Shown here: piece by piece, positions 20,815-33,124 of the stretch
How positions within the stretch are numbered: position 1 is the first letter of the stretch
Layout of the letters: each line of letters opens with the position of its first letter
Assembly (NCBI GenBank): GCA_027624915.1
Contig: JAQBTR010000008.1
Span: 1 to 37,080 of the forward strand
Source: a bacterium
GTDB lineage: Bacteria > Patescibacteriota > Minisyncoccia > Ryanbacterales > GWA2-47-10b
Direction: 5' to 3'
Length of the DNA: 37,080 bases
Position numbers and translations under genes: made by a program
The notes under the pieces: model-generated
Database searches by the model: none
What the model saw: the letters and a program-made list of their open reading frames with translations, nothing else
What the model was told of the DNA's origin: nothing

Positions 20815-20854
20815 AGATGTATTCCTAGCAGATGCGCCTAGGGTTTAGCAATAA

Positions 20855-20883
20855 TTGACCGTGAGAAATCAGCGTGCTATAAG
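20855..20883 (+). promoter_or_regulatory. sigma70-type promoter TTGACC-17-TATAAG for the GC-rich cassette gene
   Basis: TTGACC at 20855-20860, a 17-nt spacer, TATAAG at 20878-20883, then AGGAGG at 20895-20900 and the ATG at 20905. Confidence 0.55.
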
Positions 20884-20904
20884 GAGTCAGACGTAGGAGG
20901 AATT

Positions 20905-21342
20905 ATGTCAGGAGCACGTACTGGTTATTTTGGACCGGTGGATCCTTATGATCCGGTTGCGATGGATAGGACCCTAATGTCACCAAGCAATCGCCTAGAT
21001 CTGACGGTAGTCGTTGCCGCTAGTCGAGGCGTTCCCATGCACCCCTCGCTCCCTGCAGCGTGTCTTATAGATCCAGCTCTCTGGCCACTGCCCGCAGCGC
21101 ACCTTCCAGATCAATCCCACAAGAGACCAGAGAAGTCCAAGGGTGGATTCTCAATTCATTCAGCTGAGTTTTTGTATTGTGAGAAGGGGGCGATGGGATT
21201 GCCAACTCCTGCAGACCGAGTCGCAACATTTCTTTCCTGCAACTTGCCAAGCATGCACTTTAAGATGATTGGTATGGTGAATGGCAGGTCGGACTCAATC
21301 ATAATTTTCTACCAAAACCCAGAAGAGCTTCCATTAGACTAA
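20905..21342 (+). CDS. hypothetical protein (145 aa) encoded in a GC-rich islet; no recognisable family
   Basis: Strong SD (GTAGGAGGAATT-ATG) and an uninterrupted 145-codon frame in roughly 55-60% GC DNA. A rho-independent terminator follows immediately after the stop. Confidence 0.5.
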   Translation: MSGARTGYFGPVDPYDPVAMDRTLMSPSNRLDLTVVVAASRGVPMHPSLPAACLIDPALWPLPAAHLPDQSHKRPEKSKGGFSIHSAEFLYCEKGAMGLPTPADRVATFLSCNLPSMHFKMIGMVNGRSDSIIIFYQNPEELPLD

Positions 21343-21343
21343 A

Positions 21344-21371
21344 CTCCCGACAAGCGGGAGTCTTTTATTTT
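21344..21371 (+). terminator. rho-independent terminator
   Basis: CTCCCG-acaa-GCGGGAG followed by TCTTTTATTTT. Confidence 0.8.
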
Positions 21372-21381
21372 AGGGTGGGTT

Positions 21382-21573
21382 TTAGAGAAAAATTGAGAAG
21401 AGCCGTGGAGTAGCTGTTTGTCGTGTTTGGTGATAGGTAAGTTGTTGTAAAAGAAGCTTGTGACGTCTTGCGTCTTGTCTGTATGAACGACCCTTAATTA
21501 TTTTGAGGTCGATTCGATTGTTTACTTTGTCGAGCTCTGTTGTGATTACTCGTTCGAATTGTTTGCTGCTCAT
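21382..21573 (-). CDS. small basic hypothetical protein (63 aa) 9 nt downstream of lexA, probably co-transcribed
   Basis: ATG 9 nt after the lexA stop, with no hairpin between them. The next terminator-like hairpin is at 21344-21371. No clear SD. Confidence 0.35.
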   Translation of the reverse strand: MSSKQFERVITTELDKVNNRIDLKIIKGRSYRQDARRHKLLLQQLTYHQTRQTATPRLFSIFL

Positions 21574-21582
21574 GTTTTTAAT

Positions 21583-22152
21583 TTATGCGTATTTTCTAAT
21601 AACGGCCTTTACGATTCCTCCTACGCGGAGATACTCACGTGGGAATATAGAATCAAAGTTTTTGTTGGCGGGTTTCAGATAAGGTTGACCCCGTTTCGAT
21701 TCGTAATACTTGAGTGTCCAGTCTCCGTCTACTTCGGCAACGACGATGTCTCCTTGCTTGGCAACCGATGCTTGTTCAATTAGTATGCGGTCACCATCAT
21801 GTATACCGGCATCAATCATCGACTCTCCCTTAACTGTCAACATGTAAGTCTCACCAGGTTTTCGTATTAGGAAGTCATCAAGACTAATGGCATCGTTTAT
21901 ATCAGCTATCGCTTCATGTGGAATACCGGCCTCAACAAGTCCTAGCATGGCGACACCTCCGAAGATGTTTTGTGGTATGAGGTGCCCGCCCGAATCCTTT
22001 TCTACCATCCCCTCGTCTACCATATTGTTGATGAGTTTGTAGACGGAGTTTTTAGACTTGAACTTAAACATCTCCATAAATTCTTTGTAGCCTGGCATCC
22101 GACGATGCTCTCTATAAAAACTAACTATCTTTTGTTTGCGCTCTTTATCCAT
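21583..22152 (-). CDS. lexA: LexA repressor (S24 peptidase)
   Basis: wHTH N-terminus, cleavage and catalytic region (VKGESMIDAGIHDGD ... GGIVKAVIRKY). Start set at the first ATG (MDKERKQ); an upstream in-frame TTG at 22227 would add 25 aa. Confidence 0.85.
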   Translation of the reverse strand: MDKERKQKIVSFYREHRRMPGYKEFMEMFKFKSKNSVYKLINNMVDEGMVEKDSGGHLIPQNIFGGVAMLGLVEAGIPHEAIADINDAISLDDFLIRKPGETYMLTVKGESMIDAGIHDGDRILIEQASVAKQGDIVVAEVDGDWTLKYYESKRGQPYLKPANKNFDSIFPREYLRVGGIVKAVIRKYA

Positions 22153-22276
22153 CCCGTTAGTGATAGGTCGTCTGGGACGACCGTATTTGTTTAGTTGGTA
22201 ATTATTGGTTCTAAGTTTTGTTATCAATCCTGCTTTGTGATTTTATATACTAGTCACTAACAGGATCCATGAAAAT

Positions 22277-22305
22277 AGTATAGGTGAACCATAGTTCACC
22301 ATCAA
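22277..22305 (-). promoter_or_regulatory. lexA promoter TTGATG-17-TATACT with a LexA (Cheo-type) box GGTGAAC-n4-GTTCACC in the spacer
   Basis: On the minus strand: TTGATG GTGAACTATGGTTCACC TATACT. GAAC-N4-GTTC is the Gram-positive-type LexA box core. The layout is that of classic autoregulation. Confidence 0.7.
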
Positions 22306-22333
22306 CCAAATCCCTGTGGATAGCCTTAAGGTG

Positions 22334-22362
22334 TTGCAAATAAAGGATGTTTTGGCTATAAT
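22334..22362 (+). promoter_or_regulatory. sigma70 promoter TTGCAA-17-TATAAT driving the candidate sRNA
   Basis: TTGCAA at 22334-22339, a 17-nt spacer, TATAAT at 22357-22362. Divergent from the lexA promoter. Confidence 0.55.
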
Positions 22363-22368
22363 TTTTGT

Positions 22369-22585
22369 GGGCTGGGAGCTCATAAGGATTACTCATCGGG
22401 TGCAGCGCACCAGGATGGGGAAAAGGTTGCCTCTGGACCTAGCTCATGTAAATCTCATGACAATAAAGGTGAGTAAAGTGGCAAAGAGCCTTCGACCGTT
22501 CGTAACCAAGCTACCACTATCCAATAGGGATAGCCCAAGGGCTCCCAGTCCGCCGTTTCAATCGACCATGCGTGGTCGATTTTTT
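22369..22585 (+). ncRNA. candidate small RNA (about 215 nt) of unknown class; a 6S-like closed-end fold is possible
   Basis: A consensus promoter and an intrinsic terminator (ATCGACCA-tgcg-TGGTCGAT then TTTTT at 22561-22585) delimit a unit with no credible CDS. The 5' end GGGCUGGGAGC pairs with GCUCCCAGUCC at 22541-22551. No downstream gene on this strand. Confidence 0.4.
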
Positions 22586-22600
22586 AATGTCCGAATAACG

Positions 22601-22630
22601 AAACAAAAAATCCGGCTACCTAGTAGCCGG
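22601..22630 (-). terminator. rho-independent terminator for the 22616-23137 gene
   Basis: CCGGCTAC-cta-GTAGCCGG; the minus strand is followed by ATTTTTTGTTT. The stop codon lies in the stem. Confidence 0.6.
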
Positions 22631-23137
22631 CTCGATAAGTAGGTTGTGATGAACAAAGTGTACGACGTATGTCCCATCAATTCGTTCTCCAAGATCACTT
22701 AGCGTAAATTGTATGTTTTTGTTGGCTCGTTTTCTGACAGTAATCCATCCTTTGGCGAGCCCAAGTGGGGCGCCATTACCCTCTTGTGAATATGTGTGGG
22801 GGACAAAACATTTTTGTAAGCCCGCGCCTCCATTTGGGTCTGGCTTTCCATGCCTCATGATTTTATCCACGGATAAATCATTATCAAAATCTCCGTCAAA
22901 GAGCTCATACCGTAGTGGTATTATTACGCGACGTTCAAGTAGACGTTCAAACGCATTCCCCGGAAGCGTCCAAACAAATCTCCCGTCATGACCGTCCTTA
23001 ATAGTAAAAAAGCTAAATTTGCCGGCAACATCTTTAACCCAAGCATATTCAATTGATCGTATTCCCTCATGCTTGCCATATAACGAGAGGTGACTAAGAG
23101 CCTCTTCGTCAGTAAGTTTTATTGTTCTTTGGGGCAA
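22616..23137 (-). CDS. hypothetical protein (about 173 aa)
   Basis: Long ORF. Start reassigned to an in-frame TTG 7 nt after a strong SD (AAAGGAGGT), because the track GTG start lies in the T-tract of the upstream terminator. Confidence 0.5.
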   Translation of the reverse strand: MPQRTIKLTDEEALSHLSLYGKHEGIRSIEYAWVKDVAGKFSFFTIKDGHDGRFVWTLPGNAFERLLERRVIIPLRYELFDGDFDNDLSVDKIMRHGKPDPNGGAGLQKCFVPHTYSQEGNGAPLGLAKGWITVRKRANKNIQFTLSDLGERIDGTYVVHFVHHNLLIEPATR

Positions 23138-23169
23138 AAAGCCACCTCCTTTGTTCTTGTGAGATACTA

Positions 23170-23532
23170 TCACAAAAAAGCCCCGAGAAGTTCTCGGGGA
23201 AGGGGCTGGCCACCATCATCATTGGGACCCGTTGTTTCGTGTCTGAGCTTAATTAGTGAGGTTTGGATTTCTTGGAAGTGGATGGAAGCGCGCGGATCAA
23301 AAAACATATCTATATGTCGATCAAGAGCTTCGATACAGGCCTCGAGAAGCTCAAGCGCAACATGAGAGTCTGCAACACCGAGGTGTTCATTCGCGCCTCT
23401 CCAATCATCTAAAGCTTTGAATGCAGAGACGTAAGCATTTCGCGTGTGCTTAATTCCGGCTATTCGTAGGTAGATGACAAGGGTGAAAAACCCCAAAAGA
23501 ACTCCTCCCGTAAGAGCACCCTGAATGGTCAT
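23170..23532 (-). CDS. small single-TM hypothetical protein (GC-rich islet)
   Basis: Start moved to an internal ATG (MTIQGALTGGVLLGFFTLVIYL...) with GGAG 6 nt upstream. The track N-terminus is encoded by the upstream gene's terminator hairpin. Confidence 0.4.
   Translation of the reverse strand: MTIQGALTGGVLLGFFTLVIYLRIAGIKHTRNAYVSAFKALDDWRGANEHLGVADSHVALELLEACIEALDRHIDMFFDPRASIHFQEIQTSLIKLRHETTGPNDDGGQPLPRELLGAFL
23181..23199 (-). terminator. hairpin terminator (CCCCGAGAA-g-TTCTCGGGG) followed by T6 on the minus strand
   Basis: Perfect 9-bp inverted repeat with an A6 run on the plus strand. It overlaps the last codons of the 23170-23532 ORF. Confidence 0.55.
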
Positions 23533-23583
23533 GAGGATCTCCAAATCTTTTCCCAGTCTATGTAGATTATGAGAAAAAGAAAA

Positions 23584-23606
23584 GGGCCCCGCTTTAAGCG
23601 GGGCCG
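23584..23606 (-). terminator. GC-rich hairpin terminator (GGCCCCGCTT-t-AAGCGGGGCC) with the stop codon of the upstream gene in its loop
   Basis: 10-bp stem; the minus strand is followed by CTTTTCTTTTTCTC. Confidence 0.6.
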
Positions 23607-23947
23607 GGGAGGAGGCTTGCTTGGAGTGCGCCACAGATGCGATCGTTCTGTTCAAAAAGATGTCGTGCCATGCTGATGGCTAGGGCGACGTCGTCGGTGT
23701 CGTATGCGTCTCTCATGTGCTGACAACCTCCAAGCCCAAAGAACTTGTGTTCGTCGGGCATGAAATCGTCACGTTCTAGGCGGTCTACTTCTCGCATGTA
23801 GCGATTACGCAAAGGCCTGTACAGCACGAGCATGTCCTCGATGTCCTGACGTCTCAACAGGACGACGACTCTGGGGTCGAGTGGCAGGAATACTACGTCG
23901 GAGCGTTGCCCGACTGGCCAAATTGAGCTGCCAAGTTGTGGTGCCAT
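23594..23947 (-). CDS. hypothetical protein (117 aa) in a GC-rich islet
   Basis: Excellent SD (CCAAGGAGGAGTTTAA-ATG), its own terminator, about 55% GC, no recognisable family. Confidence 0.55.
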   Translation of the reverse strand: MAPQLGSSIWPVGQRSDVVFLPLDPRVVVLLRRQDIEDMLVLYRPLRNRYMREVDRLERDDFMPDEHKFFGLGGCQHMRDAYDTDDVALAISMARHLFEQNDRICGALQASLLPGPA

Positions 23948-24201
23948 TTAAACTCCTCCTTGGAAATGGAACTATGTAAAAAGAGATTAAAACAAAAAGA
24001 GCCACACGTCAACCCCCACATTAATATTTGTATTGTTGTGCTATAAATTTGATGACATAAACCAGGATTTGGCGCGTGTAATGTTTTTGATACAATCTAG
24101 AAATAAGGCACAACAAAAATTCATAATGCAAATATTAGTGCAGGGGGTCAAGAGCTCTTTTTGTTTTGAATTTAGAGTAGAGAAAAATTTTTGAGAATAC
24201 T

Positions 24202-29463: not shown

Positions 29464-29535
29464 GGAAATATCCACGATCTAATCCAGATGGTTATTATAT
29501 AAACCGCTCAATCAGAAGCTTATATTTCCCTAACT
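29458..29535. repeat. 14-bp inverted repeat (AGTTAGGGAAATAT / ATATTTCCCTAACT) flanking a 50-bp spacer at the xer stop codon
   Basis: Read directly; the arms are perfect reverse complements. Confidence 0.5.
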
Positions 29536-29657
29536 TGTTTTTCTTGGAGTGACGCGACTCAATAAAAAATGAAAAAGTAAATGGTTTTTATTTTGTGAGG
29601 GCGAAAACAAATTAAGAAATAATTTGAAGCAGAAAAACTCTACATTTCATTCTTCAT

Positions 29658-29695
29658 AATTTCCTTAACTATGATGCATCGTAGTTAAGGAAATT
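29658..29695. repeat. 38-bp near-perfect palindrome AATTTCCTTAACTA-TGATGCATCG-TAGTTAAGGAAATT (dif- or att-like candidate)
   Basis: 14-bp perfect arms around a palindromic 8-bp core GATGCATC with one T/G asymmetry. It lies at the boundary between AT-rich backbone and the GC-rich island. Confidence 0.5.
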
Positions 29696-29740
29696 GTAAA
29701 TCTATAAAGGGGATATCTATTTTTTAAAAAATGAAACGGG

Positions 29741-29763
29741 CCCCGATGAAGCTGGGGCCCGAG
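29741..29763 (-). terminator. GC hairpin (GGGCCCC-n9-GGGGCCC) followed on the minus strand by a T-rich tract
   Basis: Preceded on the plus strand by TTTTTTAAAAAATGAAAC; terminator for the 29879-30115 gene. Confidence 0.45.
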
Positions 29764-29878
29764 ACGGTGTGCTACCCACTGGGTTAGCATCCGGCTTTAC
29801 GTGAGCGAATTTTGGTCGCTCGTTATTCAATTTTTTTGTACGCTGCTCAAAAGAGTCAGCGTCGGGGGTTTGGGTGGA

Positions 29879-30384: not shown

Positions 30385-31527
30385 ATGAGTATGGGAATGC
30401 AGGTCGCATTAACGATTCTCACAATCTATGCCCTCTTTCTTCTGGTGGCTGGCGTCGGCATAGCGCTTCTCATGCACTATGCCGATGACGAACTCAAGAA
30501 GATTCGAGATCTTCTCCATACGGCAGTGGTCACGATTCGTTTGAAGGGCGTCGTGTTTCTCGTTCAAGAGAATCACTCGATTGTCTTTCGGAACGTATGG
30601 GCGACTGATATCGGTCACCTCGCAGGCTGGGTCTCTAAGACCATCGGAACGCGCGGGATCGCCAAACCTCTCTGTAGAAGAGAGAAGTGCCCTTATGAGG
30701 GCACAGATGCATGCACTGATGAACACCACCTAGGACTCGGCCCTCTCAAGTATAAGATTAGAGCCCCTGTCTATCTCACCGGCCCACAGCAGGGTCGTCC
30801 AGGGTCGGTCAAGCAGTCTACCTACAACGAGATTGCTGCCGGCACGACGAGGCAGTACAGAGGTTACAAGATCAAGCGCGAGGGGTATCGATTCTGGGTG
30901 CCGTCAGTGTGGCAGGATCTCTTCGACGTTGTGAACATGCGTCCCGTGTCGGTTTCGGTCGACCGGGATTACGAGTTCAACACTGGAGATAACCAGGAGG
31001 TTCTCATTAAGTTCCGGTACGTGTCGCAGGTTATCGACCCAATCGCTTTTCAAGTAAGGGTCGGTAATGATCAGCGCGCGGCCTGGGAGAAGGAGCAGGT
31101 CATCTCAATGATTCAGCAGATGACCAACGCCTACACGGCCGATCAGTTGACTGGCGCTGACGATGTTCAGCTCGGTTCGCTCGGTCAGATGCTTGCGGAG
31201 GTGTACAACTTCTTCATGATGGCCTACGGGCTTCAGGTTTCCGTAATTCAGATTCTTCAGATCTCACCGCCAACCGTAATCGCAGAGCGTGCAGCCCATG
31301 TACGTGCGGCTCAGCTTGCACGGAAAGCGGCGAAAGCCGAGGGTGAGAGGATCAGGGAGATCGTCGATATCACGGGCGCAACGCCCGATGAAGTCGTGCG
31401 CGCCATCAGCTATCAGAATATGGTCAACCAGGGTTCTACCACGTTCATCAGGGTCGCGGAAGCGATTAAGGATGAGTTTGCGGCGGGACGCCGAGAGGCC
31501 AAGAAAGCAAAGGAGAAGGCAGCATGA
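30385..31527 (+). CDS. SPFH/band-7 (stomatin/HflK-like) domain membrane protein with a Cys-containing insertion
   Basis: N-terminal TM, then SPFH-like segments (VVFLVQENHSIVFRNV ... GLQVSVIQILQISPPTVIAERAAHVRAAQLARKAAKAEGERI) and a coiled-coil tail. The roughly 90-aa insertion contains CRREKCPYEGTDAC. Confidence 0.55.
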   Translation: MSMGMQVALTILTIYALFLLVAGVGIALLMHYADDELKKIRDLLHTAVVTIRLKGVVFLVQENHSIVFRNVWATDIGHLAGWVSKTIGTRGIAKPLCRREKCPYEGTDACTDEHHLGLGPLKYKIRAPVYLTGPQQGRPGSVKQSTYNEIAAGTTRQYRGYKIKREGYRFWVPSVWQDLFDVVNMRPVSVSVDRDYEFNTGDNQEVLIKFRYVSQVIDPIAFQVRVGNDQRAAWEKEQVISMIQQMTNAYTADQLTGADDVQLGSLGQMLAEVYNFFMMAYGLQVSVIQILQISPPTVIAERAAHVRAAQLARKAAKAEGERIREIVDITGATPDEVVRAISYQNMVNQGSTTFIRVAEAIKDEFAAGRREAKKAKEKAA

Positions 31528-32996
31528 CCAAGGTCAAGAATTTCTTCAACGTAACCGGCAGGTTTTTACTTCGGTACCCCCTGCTGGTTGGATTCCTCGT
31601 AGTACTTCCGTTCCTCTTCGCCCTTGTATATGCCACCTGGGGTGGCATCGGGGCGGTCTTCTCGGGGGGTGCTGGCACTGGGCCTGTACCTATCCCCACG
31701 AGAGTTCTCACCTCGCTTGAGTGGGGCTGGATGGTGGCACACGTCGCCCTCTTTGCCCTCTTCTACTGTGTGTATCGTCACCGTCCATCACCCCCTGAGA
31801 AGGAATTCGATAAGGATGGTGAGCCGAGGCTTCATTACCTCGGTACAGATGGTTGGGAGCTTCGAAACGAGTACTGCCGGAAAATCCGTGAGACTCTCAA
31901 CATCCTCGTTGGATATTTCATCATCCTCTGGGCGGTGGAGCTATCCTCGTGGCCGATCAGTTCGTTCTGGCTGCCACGATGGCCGGTCGCCACAGCATGG
32001 ATCCTCATCACTCCGCTCGTTGCGGGAGGATTCCTTTCCTACTACGTCGACTGGACGAAGTCGTCTAGTCGACGAGCCCTTTGGGCATTCTATGCAGTAG
32101 CGTCCGTGATTTTTGCTCTGTCCCTCACCTTCGGGTGGATGGATGCACAAGATCCTGTCGCTGAAACACTGCGTCAGACCAAAGGCGAAATTCTCGAAGC
32201 AAGGTTAACTCCTTTAGAGGAAAAAGCCGAGCTCCTTCGTGAAGCATGGCGCGCAGGTTTCATCACTGAAGATGAGGCCGTAGAAAAGATCGCGAAGCTT
32301 CGCGAGATTCACCAGAGCGCCGAAAAGAAGTTCGGCAACCCCAACCCGCTTGCGGATGTTGTGGTTCCTGAGGCAGAAAAAGTCCTCGGCAAAGGTGGCG
32401 AATACATTGGCGGCGAGTTTTCCGAATTCTTCGGACCCTTCGTCAATGCCACCCCGTCGGAGTATCGGTACCTATGGTTTAACCCTTTCTTCTGGGGCCT
32501 TCTGATCATCGCTATCGCGGTCTTCGCGAAACTGGCGACCCGGTATGAAGGTGTTCGTACATTCATCGCGTGGATGACATTCCTTGCGGTCTGCCTTGTT
32601 CTTATCATCGTGTTTACAGCAGCTCATGAGCCAGGTGGACTCGCTCGGTTCAGCTCGGAGAAACAGACAGAGACACGAACAGATGCCGACTCTGTTGCCT
32701 TGTTCAGTCATCATCGAACCTTCGACATCAAGTCGGGAGATCGTATCCGAGTTTGGCCGAAAAATCATCCAAGGCCAAACATCACCGGAGGTGACGGGAT
32801 GTGGTATGTAACGTATGCCGCAGGGTCAACGATTCTCGGCTTCGAAATGTACCGATCGGGTGGCATGGTCGTTCAGGCTGGCACCGTTTCCGGGCCAGCA
32901 CAACTTCCAAACAATTTTTACGAGATGGATTTGGTGGCACAGAAAGGCGCTGTCAGATTCACTCTCCACTGCAATGGCTGTACCTACAGCCAATAG
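31524..32996 (+). CDS. polytopic membrane protein (about 8 TM) with a C-terminal soluble beta-rich domain; SPFH operon partner (NfeD-like role is speculative)
   Basis: ATGA overlap with the SPFH gene, many hydrophobic helices, and a C-terminal domain (FDIKSGDRIRVWPKNHPRP...). Confidence 0.5.
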   Translation: MTKVKNFFNVTGRFLLRYPLLVGFLVVLPFLFALVYATWGGIGAVFSGGAGTGPVPIPTRVLTSLEWGWMVAHVALFALFYCVYRHRPSPPEKEFDKDGEPRLHYLGTDGWELRNEYCRKIRETLNILVGYFIILWAVELSSWPISSFWLPRWPVATAWILITPLVAGGFLSYYVDWTKSSSRRALWAFYAVASVIFALSLTFGWMDAQDPVAETLRQTKGEILEARLTPLEEKAELLREAWRAGFITEDEAVEKIAKLREIHQSAEKKFGNPNPLADVVVPEAEKVLGKGGEYIGGEFSEFFGPFVNATPSEYRYLWFNPFFWGLLIIAIAVFAKLATRYEGVRTFIAWMTFLAVCLVLIIVFTAAHEPGGLARFSSEKQTETRTDADSVALFSHHRTFDIKSGDRIRVWPKNHPRPNITGGDGMWYVTYAAGSTILGFEMYRSGGMVVQAGTVSGPAQLPNNFYEMDLVAQKGAVRFTLHCNGCTYSQ

Positions 32997-33014
32997 GAGG
33001 ACGAGGGACTACAT

Positions 33015-33047: not shown

Positions 33048-33124
33048 CATACCCAAAATTTTTTCGATAAAAGACTACCCATGAGGTATAATTTATGATA
33101 AAGTCGGTTCTACGGTTTTATTAA

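What the first reader, a model, noticed from the sequence alone, without database searches (positions are those of the whole stretch)
22334..22585. Promoter-to-terminator unit encoding a candidate sRNA of about 215 nt divergent from lexA
A near-consensus promoter (TTGCAA-17-TATAAT) is followed roughly 215 nt later by a strong intrinsic terminator, with no gene beyond it. The only ORF through the region starts upstream of the promoter and reads through the terminator, so it is implausible. The transcript's first 11 nt (GGGCUGGGAGC) pair with nt 22541-22551 (GCUCCCAGUCC), closing the molecule as in 6S RNA and other stable RNAs. No RNase P, SRP or tmRNA signature motifs were found.
Basis: partly seen in the sequence, partly recalled or inferred. 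Interest (0 to 1): 0.6.

Follow-up and report, generated by a model that had tools for sequence, protein, structure and literature searches.

The report
Orphan small-RNA gene beside lexA
A strong promoter, a strong terminator and a 13-bp end-to-end helix mark a likely ~200-nt non-coding RNA gene next to lexA in a Parcubacteria genome, but it matches no known RNA family and none of the relatives examined has it, so it stays an unconfirmed, lineage-specific candidate.

Summary
There is a TTGCAA-17-TATAAT promoter at 22334-22362 and an intrinsic terminator at 22560-22586. A 13-bp helix joins the predicted 5' end to the bases just before the terminator. No ORF fits inside the unit.

The host is a Parcubacteria MAG, and the divergent gene is a genuine, self-regulated lexA. 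The unit matches no Rfam family even at E<=10, so it is not a recognisable 6S, SRP, RNase P or tmRNA. Its only open frame has no homologue among 5.8 billion proteins.

The RNA has no detectable relative in about 600 kb of related loci, in viral contigs, phages or plasmids. A single 21-mer scan of metagenomes gave only a chance hit. It sits with three orphan genes in a hypervariable spot between the dksA-like gene and comM, where nine related genomes carry other inserts or nothing.

Apart from the terminal helix and one hairpin, the interior folds no better than shuffled sequence.

Verdict: a plausible lineage-specific sRNA gene. The class is ordinary, the function is unknown, and there is no comparative support. 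The 6S analogy is not supported.

The parts
22334..22362 (+). Sigma-70-type promoter: TTGCAA (-35), 17-nt spacer, TATAAT (-10).
   Evidence: 10 of 12 consensus positions; one of only 12 sites this good in 74 kb of strand, comparable to the tRNA promoters at 33064 and 33417.
22369..22586 (+). Predicted primary transcript of about 217 nt. The start is inferred as 7-8 nt after the -10 element, and the end as the T-run of the terminator.
   Evidence: No contained ORF. No Rfam family.
22369..22381 (+). 5' arm of closing helix P1 (GGGCUGGGAGCUC).
   Evidence: pair probability 0.98-1.0 for 22372-22381; 0.56-0.58 for 22370-22371; 22369 outside the stretch scored; 12 of 1000 shuffles have an equal helix anywhere.
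22539..22551 (+). 3' arm of closing helix P1 (GGGCUCCCAGUCC). It forms two G.U pairs, G22371.U22549 and U22380.G22540, which would be C-A mismatches on the other strand.
   Evidence: fold z -2.5 on the + strand against -0.8 on the - strand.
22392..22419 (+). Hairpin H2: CUCAUC/GAUGGG plus GGUGC-AGC-GCACC. This is the only internal element with high pair probability.
   Evidence: probability 0.90-0.99. (-15.3 kcal/mol, z -4.3).
22517..22533 (+). Weaker hairpin CUAUCC-AAUAG-GGAUAG.
   Evidence: probability about 0.54. (-7.0 kcal/mol, z -2.65).
22560..22586 (+). Intrinsic terminator: 9-bp stem AAUCGACCA/UGGUCGAUU, UGCG loop, then U6.
   Evidence: (-11.4 kcal/mol, z -4.1).
22317..22325 (-). DnaA-box-like element CTATCCACA. 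It lies about -44 to -52 from the RNA start and about -47 to -55 from the lexA start. Its role as a shared upstream element is inferred. It belongs primarily to the conserved lexA control region.
   Evidence: TTATCCACA with 0-1 mismatch at this position in 24 of 30 Patescibacteria lexA loci.

Best explanation
The unit is a real, independently transcribed, non-coding small-RNA gene specific to this lineage of Parcubacteria.

Shown: RNA polymerase with the housekeeping sigma factor would start at about 22369 from a near-consensus promoter and stop at the intrinsic terminator at about 22586. The first 13 nt pair with the 13 nt that lie 8 nt before the terminator hairpin. This seals both ends of a roughly 183-nt body.

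Inferred: the sealed ends protect the body from exonucleases. The interior carries one stable hairpin and several A-rich, AAGG-containing linkers that remain accessible. I think the most likely action is in trans as a regulatory RNA, through base-pairing or protein binding by those exposed linkers. It arrived with, or arose in, the accessory island it shares with three orphan genes.

Inferred regulation: the RNA is probably not SOS-repressed. The LexA operator (22283-22300) lies 33 nt upstream of its -35 element, inside the lexA promoter spacer. The RNA may instead share the conserved DnaA-box-like upstream element with lexA.

In short, the signals and the absence of coding capacity are shown. 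Transcription, end-sealing as a stabiliser, trans action and co-regulation are all inferred.
For: Transcription signals:
- The promoter matches 10 of 12 positions with a perfect -10 and a 17-nt spacer. It is among the 12 best sites in the window, alongside tRNA and gene promoters.
- The terminator is strong.

Structure:
- The 13-bp terminal helix is anchored at the predicted 5' end and at the pre-terminator position. A comparable helix occurs anywhere in only 1.2% of shuffles.
- Both non-Watson-Crick positions are G.U on the + strand, and folding is strand-asymmetric (z -2.5 against -0.8).
- The core GC is 0.527, against 0.37-0.38 in the flanking non-coding DNA and 0.43 for the window.

Not coding:
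- No ORF fits in the transcript.
- The read-through ORF has no homologue other than itself among 5.77e9 proteins, no Pfam hit, and no translated similarity in related loci.

Context:
- The genome is compact, and this 463-nt gap is the longest non-coding interval listed in the window.
Against: - No homologue was found anywhere. Searches covered 93-96 related loci (about 0.6 Mb) by nhmmer, blastn and a single-sequence covariance model, plus viral contigs, phages and plasmids. A single 21-mer metagenome scan gave only a chance hit in an alanine racemase gene.
- There is therefore no covariation and no conservation.
- Nine genomes of the same clade keep the flanking synteny but lack the RNA.
- Without P1, the inner 157 nt fold no better than shuffles (z -1.29).
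- A fold z of -2.5 is reached by 8.5% of control windows.
- The raised GC could partly reflect the island, since neighbouring orphan genes are at 0.45-0.51.
- No significant antisense target was found in the window.
- No expression data are available.
Confidence: 0.5

Rival explanations
1. Non-functional DNA of an accessory island. On this reading, a fortuitous or relic promoter, a terminator that mainly insulates the convergent orphan operon and lexA, and a chance inverted repeat together look like an RNA gene. Any transcript would be noise.
For: - The segment is absent from all nine syntenic relatives, and the dksA-like to comM interval is a hypervariable hotspot.
- All neighbouring genes are orphans.
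- The interior is not more structured than shuffles.
- The fold z-score is unexceptional against contig background.
- Promoter-like sites in the 3-kb region are not enriched over shuffles (6 found against 4.2 expected).
Against: - Three independent signals coincide in the right order, strand and spacing: a top-tier promoter, a strong terminator, and a helix anchored exactly at the predicted 5' end and the pre-terminator position.
- The G.U-only imperfections favour the transcribed strand.
- The GC step against the flanks is sharp.
- The genome is compact.
Confidence: 0.25
2. It is the RNA component of an island-borne RNA-protein module formed with the adjacent orphan operon (117-, 120- and 173-aa genes at 23947-22616). 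This could be an unconventional toxin-antitoxin or defence system in which the RNA neutralises or guides a protein.
For: - The RNA and the orphan operon are convergent, with back-to-back terminators (22560-22586 on + and 22630-22612 on -).
- They share the same variable insert and a raised GC.
- The same hotspot holds a PhdYeFM/PemK toxin-antitoxin pair and a decayed toxin-like stretch in L087.
Against: - No PADLOC, Pfam, PHROG or NCBIfam hit for any of the three proteins.
- No tandem repeats as in type III antitoxins.
- No promoter-equipped hydrophobic mini-ORF antisense to the RNA as in type I systems.
- No reverse transcriptase, TnpB, IscB or recombinase nearby.
- The 174-aa neighbour has no relatives, so co-occurrence cannot be tested. 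Its structure prediction failed (pLDDT 34).
Confidence: 0.1
3. It is a highly diverged housekeeping RNA, most plausibly a 6S-type RNA that sequesters RNA polymerase, too divergent in this CPR lineage for the Rfam model.
For: - The length of about 185 nt and the 5'/3' closing stem resemble 6S RNA.
- A rod-like, interior-loop-only fold is only about 8 kcal/mol above the MFE (-61.4 against -69.3).
- CPR housekeeping RNAs are poorly charted. This point rests on my own knowledge.
Against: - No 6S hit even at E<=10 on a 191-nt query.
- Once P1 is removed, the rod fold is not better than shuffles (z -1.05).
- The MFE and centroid are multi-branched and lack a large central bubble.
- A core RNA would not be expected in a strain-specific insert missing from nine syntenic relatives.
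- SRP RNA is excluded separately. Parcubacteria are reported to lack both ffh and ffs (PMC4508563).
Confidence: 0.07
4. It is a small protein gene. The frame open from 22400, 22415 or 22478 to 22642 (54-80 aa, very basic) would be translated, with the terminator hairpin leaky.
For: - A 108-codon open frame spans the region, and the source annotation called a 103-aa gene there.
- GTG 22478 is preceded by AAGGUGA at a 5-nt spacing.
Against: - The frame runs through two terminator hairpins and 27 nt into the convergent gene.
- Only the sequence itself was recovered from 5.77e9 proteins.
- No Pfam domain.
- The longer start codons lack a properly spaced Shine-Dalgarno sequence.
- A transcript ending at the terminator would lack a stop codon.
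Confidence: 0.05
5. It is a miniature inverted-repeat transposable element. On this reading the 13-bp arms are terminal inverted repeats, not an RNA helix.
For: - Inverted repeats of 13 bp flank a 157-bp body.
- The unit lies in a variable region.
Against: - No second copy in the window or in any fetched locus.
- No target-site duplication at the arm ends.
- The arms differ only by G.U-compatible changes on one strand.
- The arm starts exactly at the position expected for transcription initiation.
Confidence: 0.03

Closest known systems
Stand-alone bacterial trans-acting sRNA genes (own sigma-70 promoter plus Rho-independent terminator, 50-300 nt, often strain-specific or island-borne)
   Same: Own strong promoter, intrinsic terminator with a U-run, no coding capacity, a length of about 200 nt, intergenic position between divergent and convergent genes, and a narrow phylogenetic distribution.
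   Different: The 5' end is locked in a 13-bp helix instead of offering a free seed. No target complementarity, chaperone or conservation could be shown. No sRNA family from Parcubacteria is available for comparison.
6S RNA (Rfam RF00013)
   Same: Similar size, with the 5' and 3' ends paired into a closing stem.
   Different: No covariance-model match at any threshold tried. The interior is multi-branched and not significantly rod-like. There is no large central bubble. The RNA sits in an accessory insert, not a conserved core locus.
SOS-locus-associated small transcripts and genes divergent from lexA (yneA in Bacillus, divS and chiZ in Actinobacteria; LexA-controlled type I systems such as tisB/istR-1). 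Named from my own knowledge.
   Same: It is transcribed divergently from lexA, out of a shared control region.
   Different: The single LexA operator lies in the lexA promoter spacer, 33 nt upstream of the RNA's -35 element, so LexA should not occlude this promoter. There is no small hydrophobic or LysM-type ORF. Relatives with the same lexA control region lack the unit.
Retron msr-msd RNA and bacterial Y RNAs (end-paired structured RNAs tied to a partner protein gene)
   Same: Terminal inverted repeats close the molecule, which is about 150-200 nt long.
   Different: No reverse transcriptase gene downstream and no rsr/Ro gene nearby. No Rfam match.

Membership tests
6S RNA (RF00013) | Scores at or above the family covariance-model threshold. 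| tested here: not met
   No 6S hit at gathering score, nor at E<=10 on 501-nt and 191-nt queries.
6S RNA (RF00013) | Extended rod: closing stem, large central bubble, terminal stem. | tested here: not met
   The closing stem is present. The MFE and centroid are multi-branched. The rod-only fold of the inner 157 nt has z -1.05 against shuffles. In the E. coli 6S control, the rod fold equals the MFE.
6S RNA (RF00013) | Binds sigma-70 holoenzyme and templates pRNA synthesis. | not testable with these tools
   Needs biochemistry.
SRP (4.5S/scRNA) RNA | Domain IV motif recognised by the Rfam SRP models, with an Ffh partner in the genome. | tested here: not met
   No SRP hit. Parcubacteria are reported to lack both ffh and ffs (PMC4508563).
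RNase P RNA | P4 pseudoknot with the conserved CR-I and CR-V sequences, and a covariance-model match. | tested here: not met
   No RNase P hit at any threshold. GAGGAAAGUCC and ACAGAA..GGCUUA are absent from the sequence. At 185 nt the RNA is about half the bacterial size.
tmRNA | tRNA-like domain plus tag-peptide reading frame. | tested here: not met
   ARAGORN finds only four tRNAs in the window. No Rfam tmRNA hit.
Stand-alone trans-acting sRNA gene | Own promoter and Rho-independent terminator, with no translatable ORF. | tested here: met
   (signals). (no contained ORF, no protein homologue).
Stand-alone trans-acting sRNA gene | A discrete transcript is detected. | not testable with these tools
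   No expression data are accessible.
Stand-alone trans-acting sRNA gene | A conserved seed or structure, or an identifiable target. | tested here: inconclusive
   No homologues were found, so there is no conservation test. There is no antisense match of 12 nt or more in the 37-kb window, but most of the genome is unavailable.
Type III toxin-antitoxin antitoxin RNA (ToxI-like) | Tandem direct repeats upstream of, and co-oriented with, an endoribonuclease toxin gene. | tested here: not met
   No tandem repeats. The neighbouring gene is convergent and matches no family.
Retron msr-msd | Terminal inverted repeats plus a reverse transcriptase gene immediately downstream on the same strand. | tested here: not met
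   Inverted repeats are present. However, a terminator and a convergent orphan gene follow, and no RVT domain appears in the called genes of the locus.
LexA-regulated (SOS) gene | LexA operator overlapping the promoter or transcription start. | tested here: not met
   The only GAAC-N4-GTTC box (22283-22300) sits in the lexA promoter spacer, 33 nt upstream of the RNA's -35 element. No box lies in 22330-22380.

The most novel reading that the evidence does not exclude
The RNA is a new, CPR-specific riboregulator wired to the replication and SOS control node. It would be transcribed back-to-back with lexA from a control region centred on a conserved DnaA-box-like element. It would act as an end-sealed, protein-sequestering or mRNA-targeting RNA, possibly together with the three orphan proteins of the same insert. 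That would make it the first described regulatory RNA of Parcubacteria and the founder of a family not in Rfam.
Probability: 0.1. Interest if true: 0.6.

Novelty: new member of a known kind. Interest (0 to 1): 0.3.

Why it matters
Regulatory RNAs of the Candidate Phyla Radiation are essentially uncharted. A validated sRNA in a genome of about 1 Mb or less, sitting in the lexA control region, would give an entry point to post-transcriptional regulation in these symbionts.

As it stands, this is a single-genome candidate with no comparative support, so its value is as a lead for transcriptomics, not as a discovery.

The by-product may be of wider use. A DnaA-box consensus is conserved just upstream of the LexA-repressed lexA promoter across Patescibacteria, which points to a link between replication initiation and SOS control that can be tested in many genomes.

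Tried and rejected
- Rfam at gathering score and at E<=10 on three nested intervals. Only weak chance hits appeared (CRISPR-DR5, Trp_leader on the neighbouring terminator, snoZ6, Mu-gpT-DE), none credible.
- Synteny-guided homologue search. I fetched 80 lexA loci from GTDB genomes, the closest lexA contigs and nine PNPase-anchored loci of the same clade. nhmmer, blastn and tblastx found nothing.
- Single-sequence covariance model R1. It found only itself.
- ORF-as-protein search to catch mis-annotated homologues. Only the sequence itself came back.
- Metagenome 21-mer scan. The one hit lies inside the 3' end of an alanine racemase gene and does not extend beyond 22 identical bases plus a few more, so I judged it chance. 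I considered an alr-pseudogene reading and rejected it: there is no Pfam hit and no extended similarity.
- Viral contig, phage and plasmid searches were empty.
- Function of the neighbour. The 174-aa protein is an orphan, has no defence, phage or NCBIfam hit, and its single-sequence AlphaFold model is unusable (pLDDT 34). I ran no fold search.
- Target prediction with RNAduplex gave uninterpretable full-length duplexes. An exact-complement search found nothing beyond chance.
- The repeated CUCAU pentamer (four copies in the 5' half) was considered as a protein-binding motif. Two copies are explained by the palindromic UCAUG/CAUGA hairpin, so I did not pursue it.
- A possible P4-like pairing (AAGGUUGCC with GGCAA-AGAG-CCUU) was considered as a minimal RNase P feature. 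I rejected it because the universal CR sequences are absent.
- The L086 unit upstream of lexA was tested as a possible inverted homologue. It shows no sequence similarity.

Full report
**What is there**

The window comes from an 85-kb scaffold of an uncultured Parcubacteria/Paceibacterota bacterium (ENA ERZ23495043, MEHR18-1 scaffold_521). A 1.6-kb Logan contig covering the region is identical to it.

The gene at 22152-21583 on the - strand is lexA. It scores 115.9 bits against TIGR00498 (cut-off 110.95) and contains a Peptidase_S24 domain. Its closest relatives are named Parcubacteria LexA proteins and are at most 63% identical.

The 463-nt gap between lexA and the convergent orphan gene 23140-22616 is the longest non-coding interval in the window.

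**Check of the observation**

- The promoter is TTGCAA-17-TATAAT at 22334-22362, matching 10 of 12 positions. Only 12 sites of this quality exist on the two strands of the whole window. Several of the others precede tRNA or protein genes, so this is how real promoters look in this genome.
- The terminator is a 9-bp hairpin at 22560-22581 followed by T6. It folds at -11.4 kcal/mol with z -4.1.
- From a start near 22369, the transcript would be about 217 nt.
- Its first 13 nt (22369-22381) pair with 22539-22551, giving 11 Watson-Crick and 2 G.U pairs. Pair probability is about 1.0 for ten of the pairs (0.56-0.58 for 22370/22550 and 22371/22549; the outermost pair 22369/22551 lay outside the stretch scored).
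- A helix with at least 11 Watson-Crick pairs occurs anywhere in only 12 of 1000 dinucleotide shuffles. Here it is also anchored at the predicted 5' end and 8 nt before the terminator.
- Both imperfect pairs are G.U on the + strand, which would be C-A on the other strand. Folding is strand-asymmetric, with z -2.5 on + and -0.8 on -.
- The core GC is 0.527 against 0.37-0.38 in the flanking non-coding DNA.

**Coding capacity**

The only open frame is 22316-22642. It starts before the -35 element, crosses both terminator hairpins and overlaps the convergent gene by 27 nt. Apart from an 8-codon ORF that begins in the terminator stem, no ORF of 5 or more codons lies within the transcript.

The source annotation did call a 103-aa protein here. 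That sequence has no relative other than itself among 5.77 billion proteins, no Pfam domain and no translated similarity in related loci.

**Known RNA families**

- Rfam 15 gives only four tRNAs in the window at gathering thresholds.
- At E<=10 on 501-nt and 191-nt intervals it gives only chance-level hits. None is to 6S, SRP, RNase P or tmRNA.
- ARAGORN finds no tmRNA.
- SRP RNA is additionally unlikely because Parcubacteria are reported to lack both ffh and ffs (PMC4508563).
- There are no tandem repeats as in type III antitoxins.
- No reverse transcriptase, TnpB, IscB or Ro partner gene is present.

**How structured is it really**

The whole unit folds with z about -3.2 to -3.5. This is less impressive than it looks, for two reasons.

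- Seven of 82 control windows of the same contig reach z <= -2.5.
- After removing P1, the inner 157 nt give z -1.29 for the MFE and -1.05 for a rod-only fold.

Only P1 and hairpin H2 (22392-22419; -15.3 kcal/mol; pair probability at least 0.9) are robust. The remaining helices compete with alternatives. For example, GGUGAGUAA at 22469-22477 can pair with several CUCAU sites.

For E. coli 6S, used as a control, the rod fold equals the MFE. Here the rod fold is 8 kcal/mol worse, and its interior is not significant. The 6S analogy is therefore limited to the closing stem.

**Comparative evidence**

I looked for relatives in four ways.

- Around lexA. Eighty GTDB loci and the three closest lexA contigs contain no similar sequence.
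- Around the nearby PNPase gene. This defines a clade of about 24 relatives at 62-68% identity. Nine of their loci share the backbone xerC-like / S15 / NYN / PNPase / ~275-aa / dksA-like / [variable] / comM / LysM-M23 / UvrD / RsmA. The variable slot differs in each:
  - it is empty in L092 and L096;
  - it holds a ~600-aa orphan in L089 and L095;
  - it holds 5.4 kb of other orphans in L090;
  - it holds a PhdYeFM/PemK pair next to lexA in L087;
  - in L086 lexA follows comM.
  None contains the RNA by nhmmer, blastn or covariance model R1.
- In public collections. A 21-mer from the RNA hits one metagenome contig. The hit lies in the 3' end of an alanine racemase gene, and similarity stops after about 30 nt. 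That is about what chance predicts for a collection of this size. Viral contigs, phages and plasmids give nothing.
- Through the neighbours. The adjacent 174-aa protein is an orphan in 1.84 billion representatives, and all three orphan proteins lack any family, phage or defence hit.

The RNA is therefore part of a strain- or lineage-specific insert. No covariation test is possible.

**Regulatory context**

The lexA promoter is TTGATG (22305-22300), a 17-nt spacer, then TATACT (22282-22277). Its spacer contains a GGTGAAC-N4-GTTCACC operator at 22283-22300.

This architecture is conserved in Patescibacteria, together with a TTATCCACA motif. That motif is the DnaA-box consensus, and it lies 6-27 nt upstream of the -35 element. 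It is present with 0-1 mismatch in 24 of 30 loci, and in none of the proteobacterial loci.

In the window the box (22317-22325) lies almost symmetrically between the two divergent start sites. The LexA operator is 33 nt upstream of the RNA's -35 element and should not occlude it. I infer that the RNA is not SOS-repressed but could share the upstream element with lexA. This is untested.

**Interpretation**

The coincidence of a top-tier promoter, a strong terminator, an end-anchored helix with strand-specific wobble pairs, a GC step and no coding capacity, all in a compact genome, makes a real non-coding transcript the best single explanation. I put it at about 0.5.

The most likely mode of action is a trans-acting regulatory RNA whose ends are sealed for stability. 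Its A-rich, AAGG-containing linkers would be the accessible parts. That step is inference only.

The rivals and their weights are:

| Rival | Confidence |
|---|---|
| Non-functional island DNA with fortuitous signals | 0.25 |
| RNA partner of the adjacent orphan operon | 0.10 |
| Very divergent 6S-like RNA | 0.07 |
| Small basic protein | 0.05 |
| MITE | 0.03 |

**Verdict**

The unit is a credible but unvalidated, single-genome sRNA candidate of an ordinary kind, with no family, no homologues and no assignable function. Interest is modest until transcript evidence or homologues appear.

Noticed in passing
window 22317-22325 (- strand CTATCCACA); same position in L001-L025, L059, L083-L087: A DnaA-box consensus (TTATCCACA, 0-1 mismatch) lies 6-27 nt upstream of the -35 element of the LexA-repressed lexA promoter. 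It is present in 24 of 30 Patescibacteria loci and in none of the proteobacterial lexA loci. This suggests that DnaA, or another factor, feeds into lexA control across the group.
   Followed up: partly
window 22277-22305 (- strand): The lexA promoter TTGATG-17-TATACT carries a Cheo-type LexA operator, GGTGAAC-CATA-GTTCACC (22283-22300), filling the spacer. This is classic autoregulation and is conserved in relatives.
   Followed up: yes
window 21382-21573 (- strand): A 63-aa ORF (MSSKQFERVITTELDKVNNRIDLKIIKG...) with no family hit is a conserved lexA partner. It lies directly upstream of lexA in many relatives (for example L001, L083, L085) and directly downstream in the window, L086 and L087. 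It may be an uncharacterised SOS-operon protein.
   Followed up: partly
window 20857-21361 (+ strand): A second self-contained unit lies between comM and the lexA operon. It has a TTGACC-17-TATAAG promoter, a GGAGG ribosome-binding site, a 145-aa orphan ORF (20905-21342) and a terminator at 21343-21361. No Pfam, NCBIfam, PHROG or PADLOC hit and no Rfam hit.
   Followed up: partly
window about 20815-24201; loci L086-L093, L095, L096: The interval between the dksA-like gene and comM is a hypervariable insertion hotspot within an otherwise conserved backbone (xerC-like/S15/NYN/PNPase/.../comM/LysM-M23/UvrD/RsmA). It ranges from 65 nt to 5.4 kb, and its contents differ in most of the genomes examined.
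   Followed up: yes
L086 5547-5790 (+ strand): A relative carries a different promoter (TTGACG-17-TATATA), about 215 nt of transcript, and a terminator unit. It sits immediately upstream of its lexA control region and also has a 5'/3' closing helix. It shows no sequence similarity to the window's RNA and no Rfam hit.
   Followed up: partly
window 23989-24167: A long imperfect palindrome lies in the AT-rich spacer downstream of the dksA-like gene. The outer arms are 14 nt and 100% complementary, and the inner arms are 22 nt and 82% complementary.
   Followed up: no
window 21383-21394 and 24178-24189: An exact 12-nt direct repeat, TAGAGAAAAATT, brackets the segment holding lexA, the RNA and the three orphan genes. 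About 0.4 such pairs are expected by chance in this region, so it may mean nothing.
   Followed up: no
window 29464-29800: The intergenic region after the xerC-like integrase gene contains a perfect 19-bp hairpin and a GC-rich hairpin. Fold z is -4.55, and there is no Rfam hit.
   Followed up: no
window 30500-33000: This segment has markedly higher GC (0.52-0.56 against 0.43). It holds an SPFH/Band_7 gene and a 490-aa orphan. The pair also occurs next to the xerC-like gene in relatives L092 and L096.
   Followed up: no
L094 2551-2571: The 21-mer CAGGATGGGGAAAAGGTTGCC from the RNA also occurs at the 3' end of an unrelated alanine racemase gene (...SRMGKRLPRIYVK). Similarity does not extend, so I treated it as coincidence.
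   Followed up: yes
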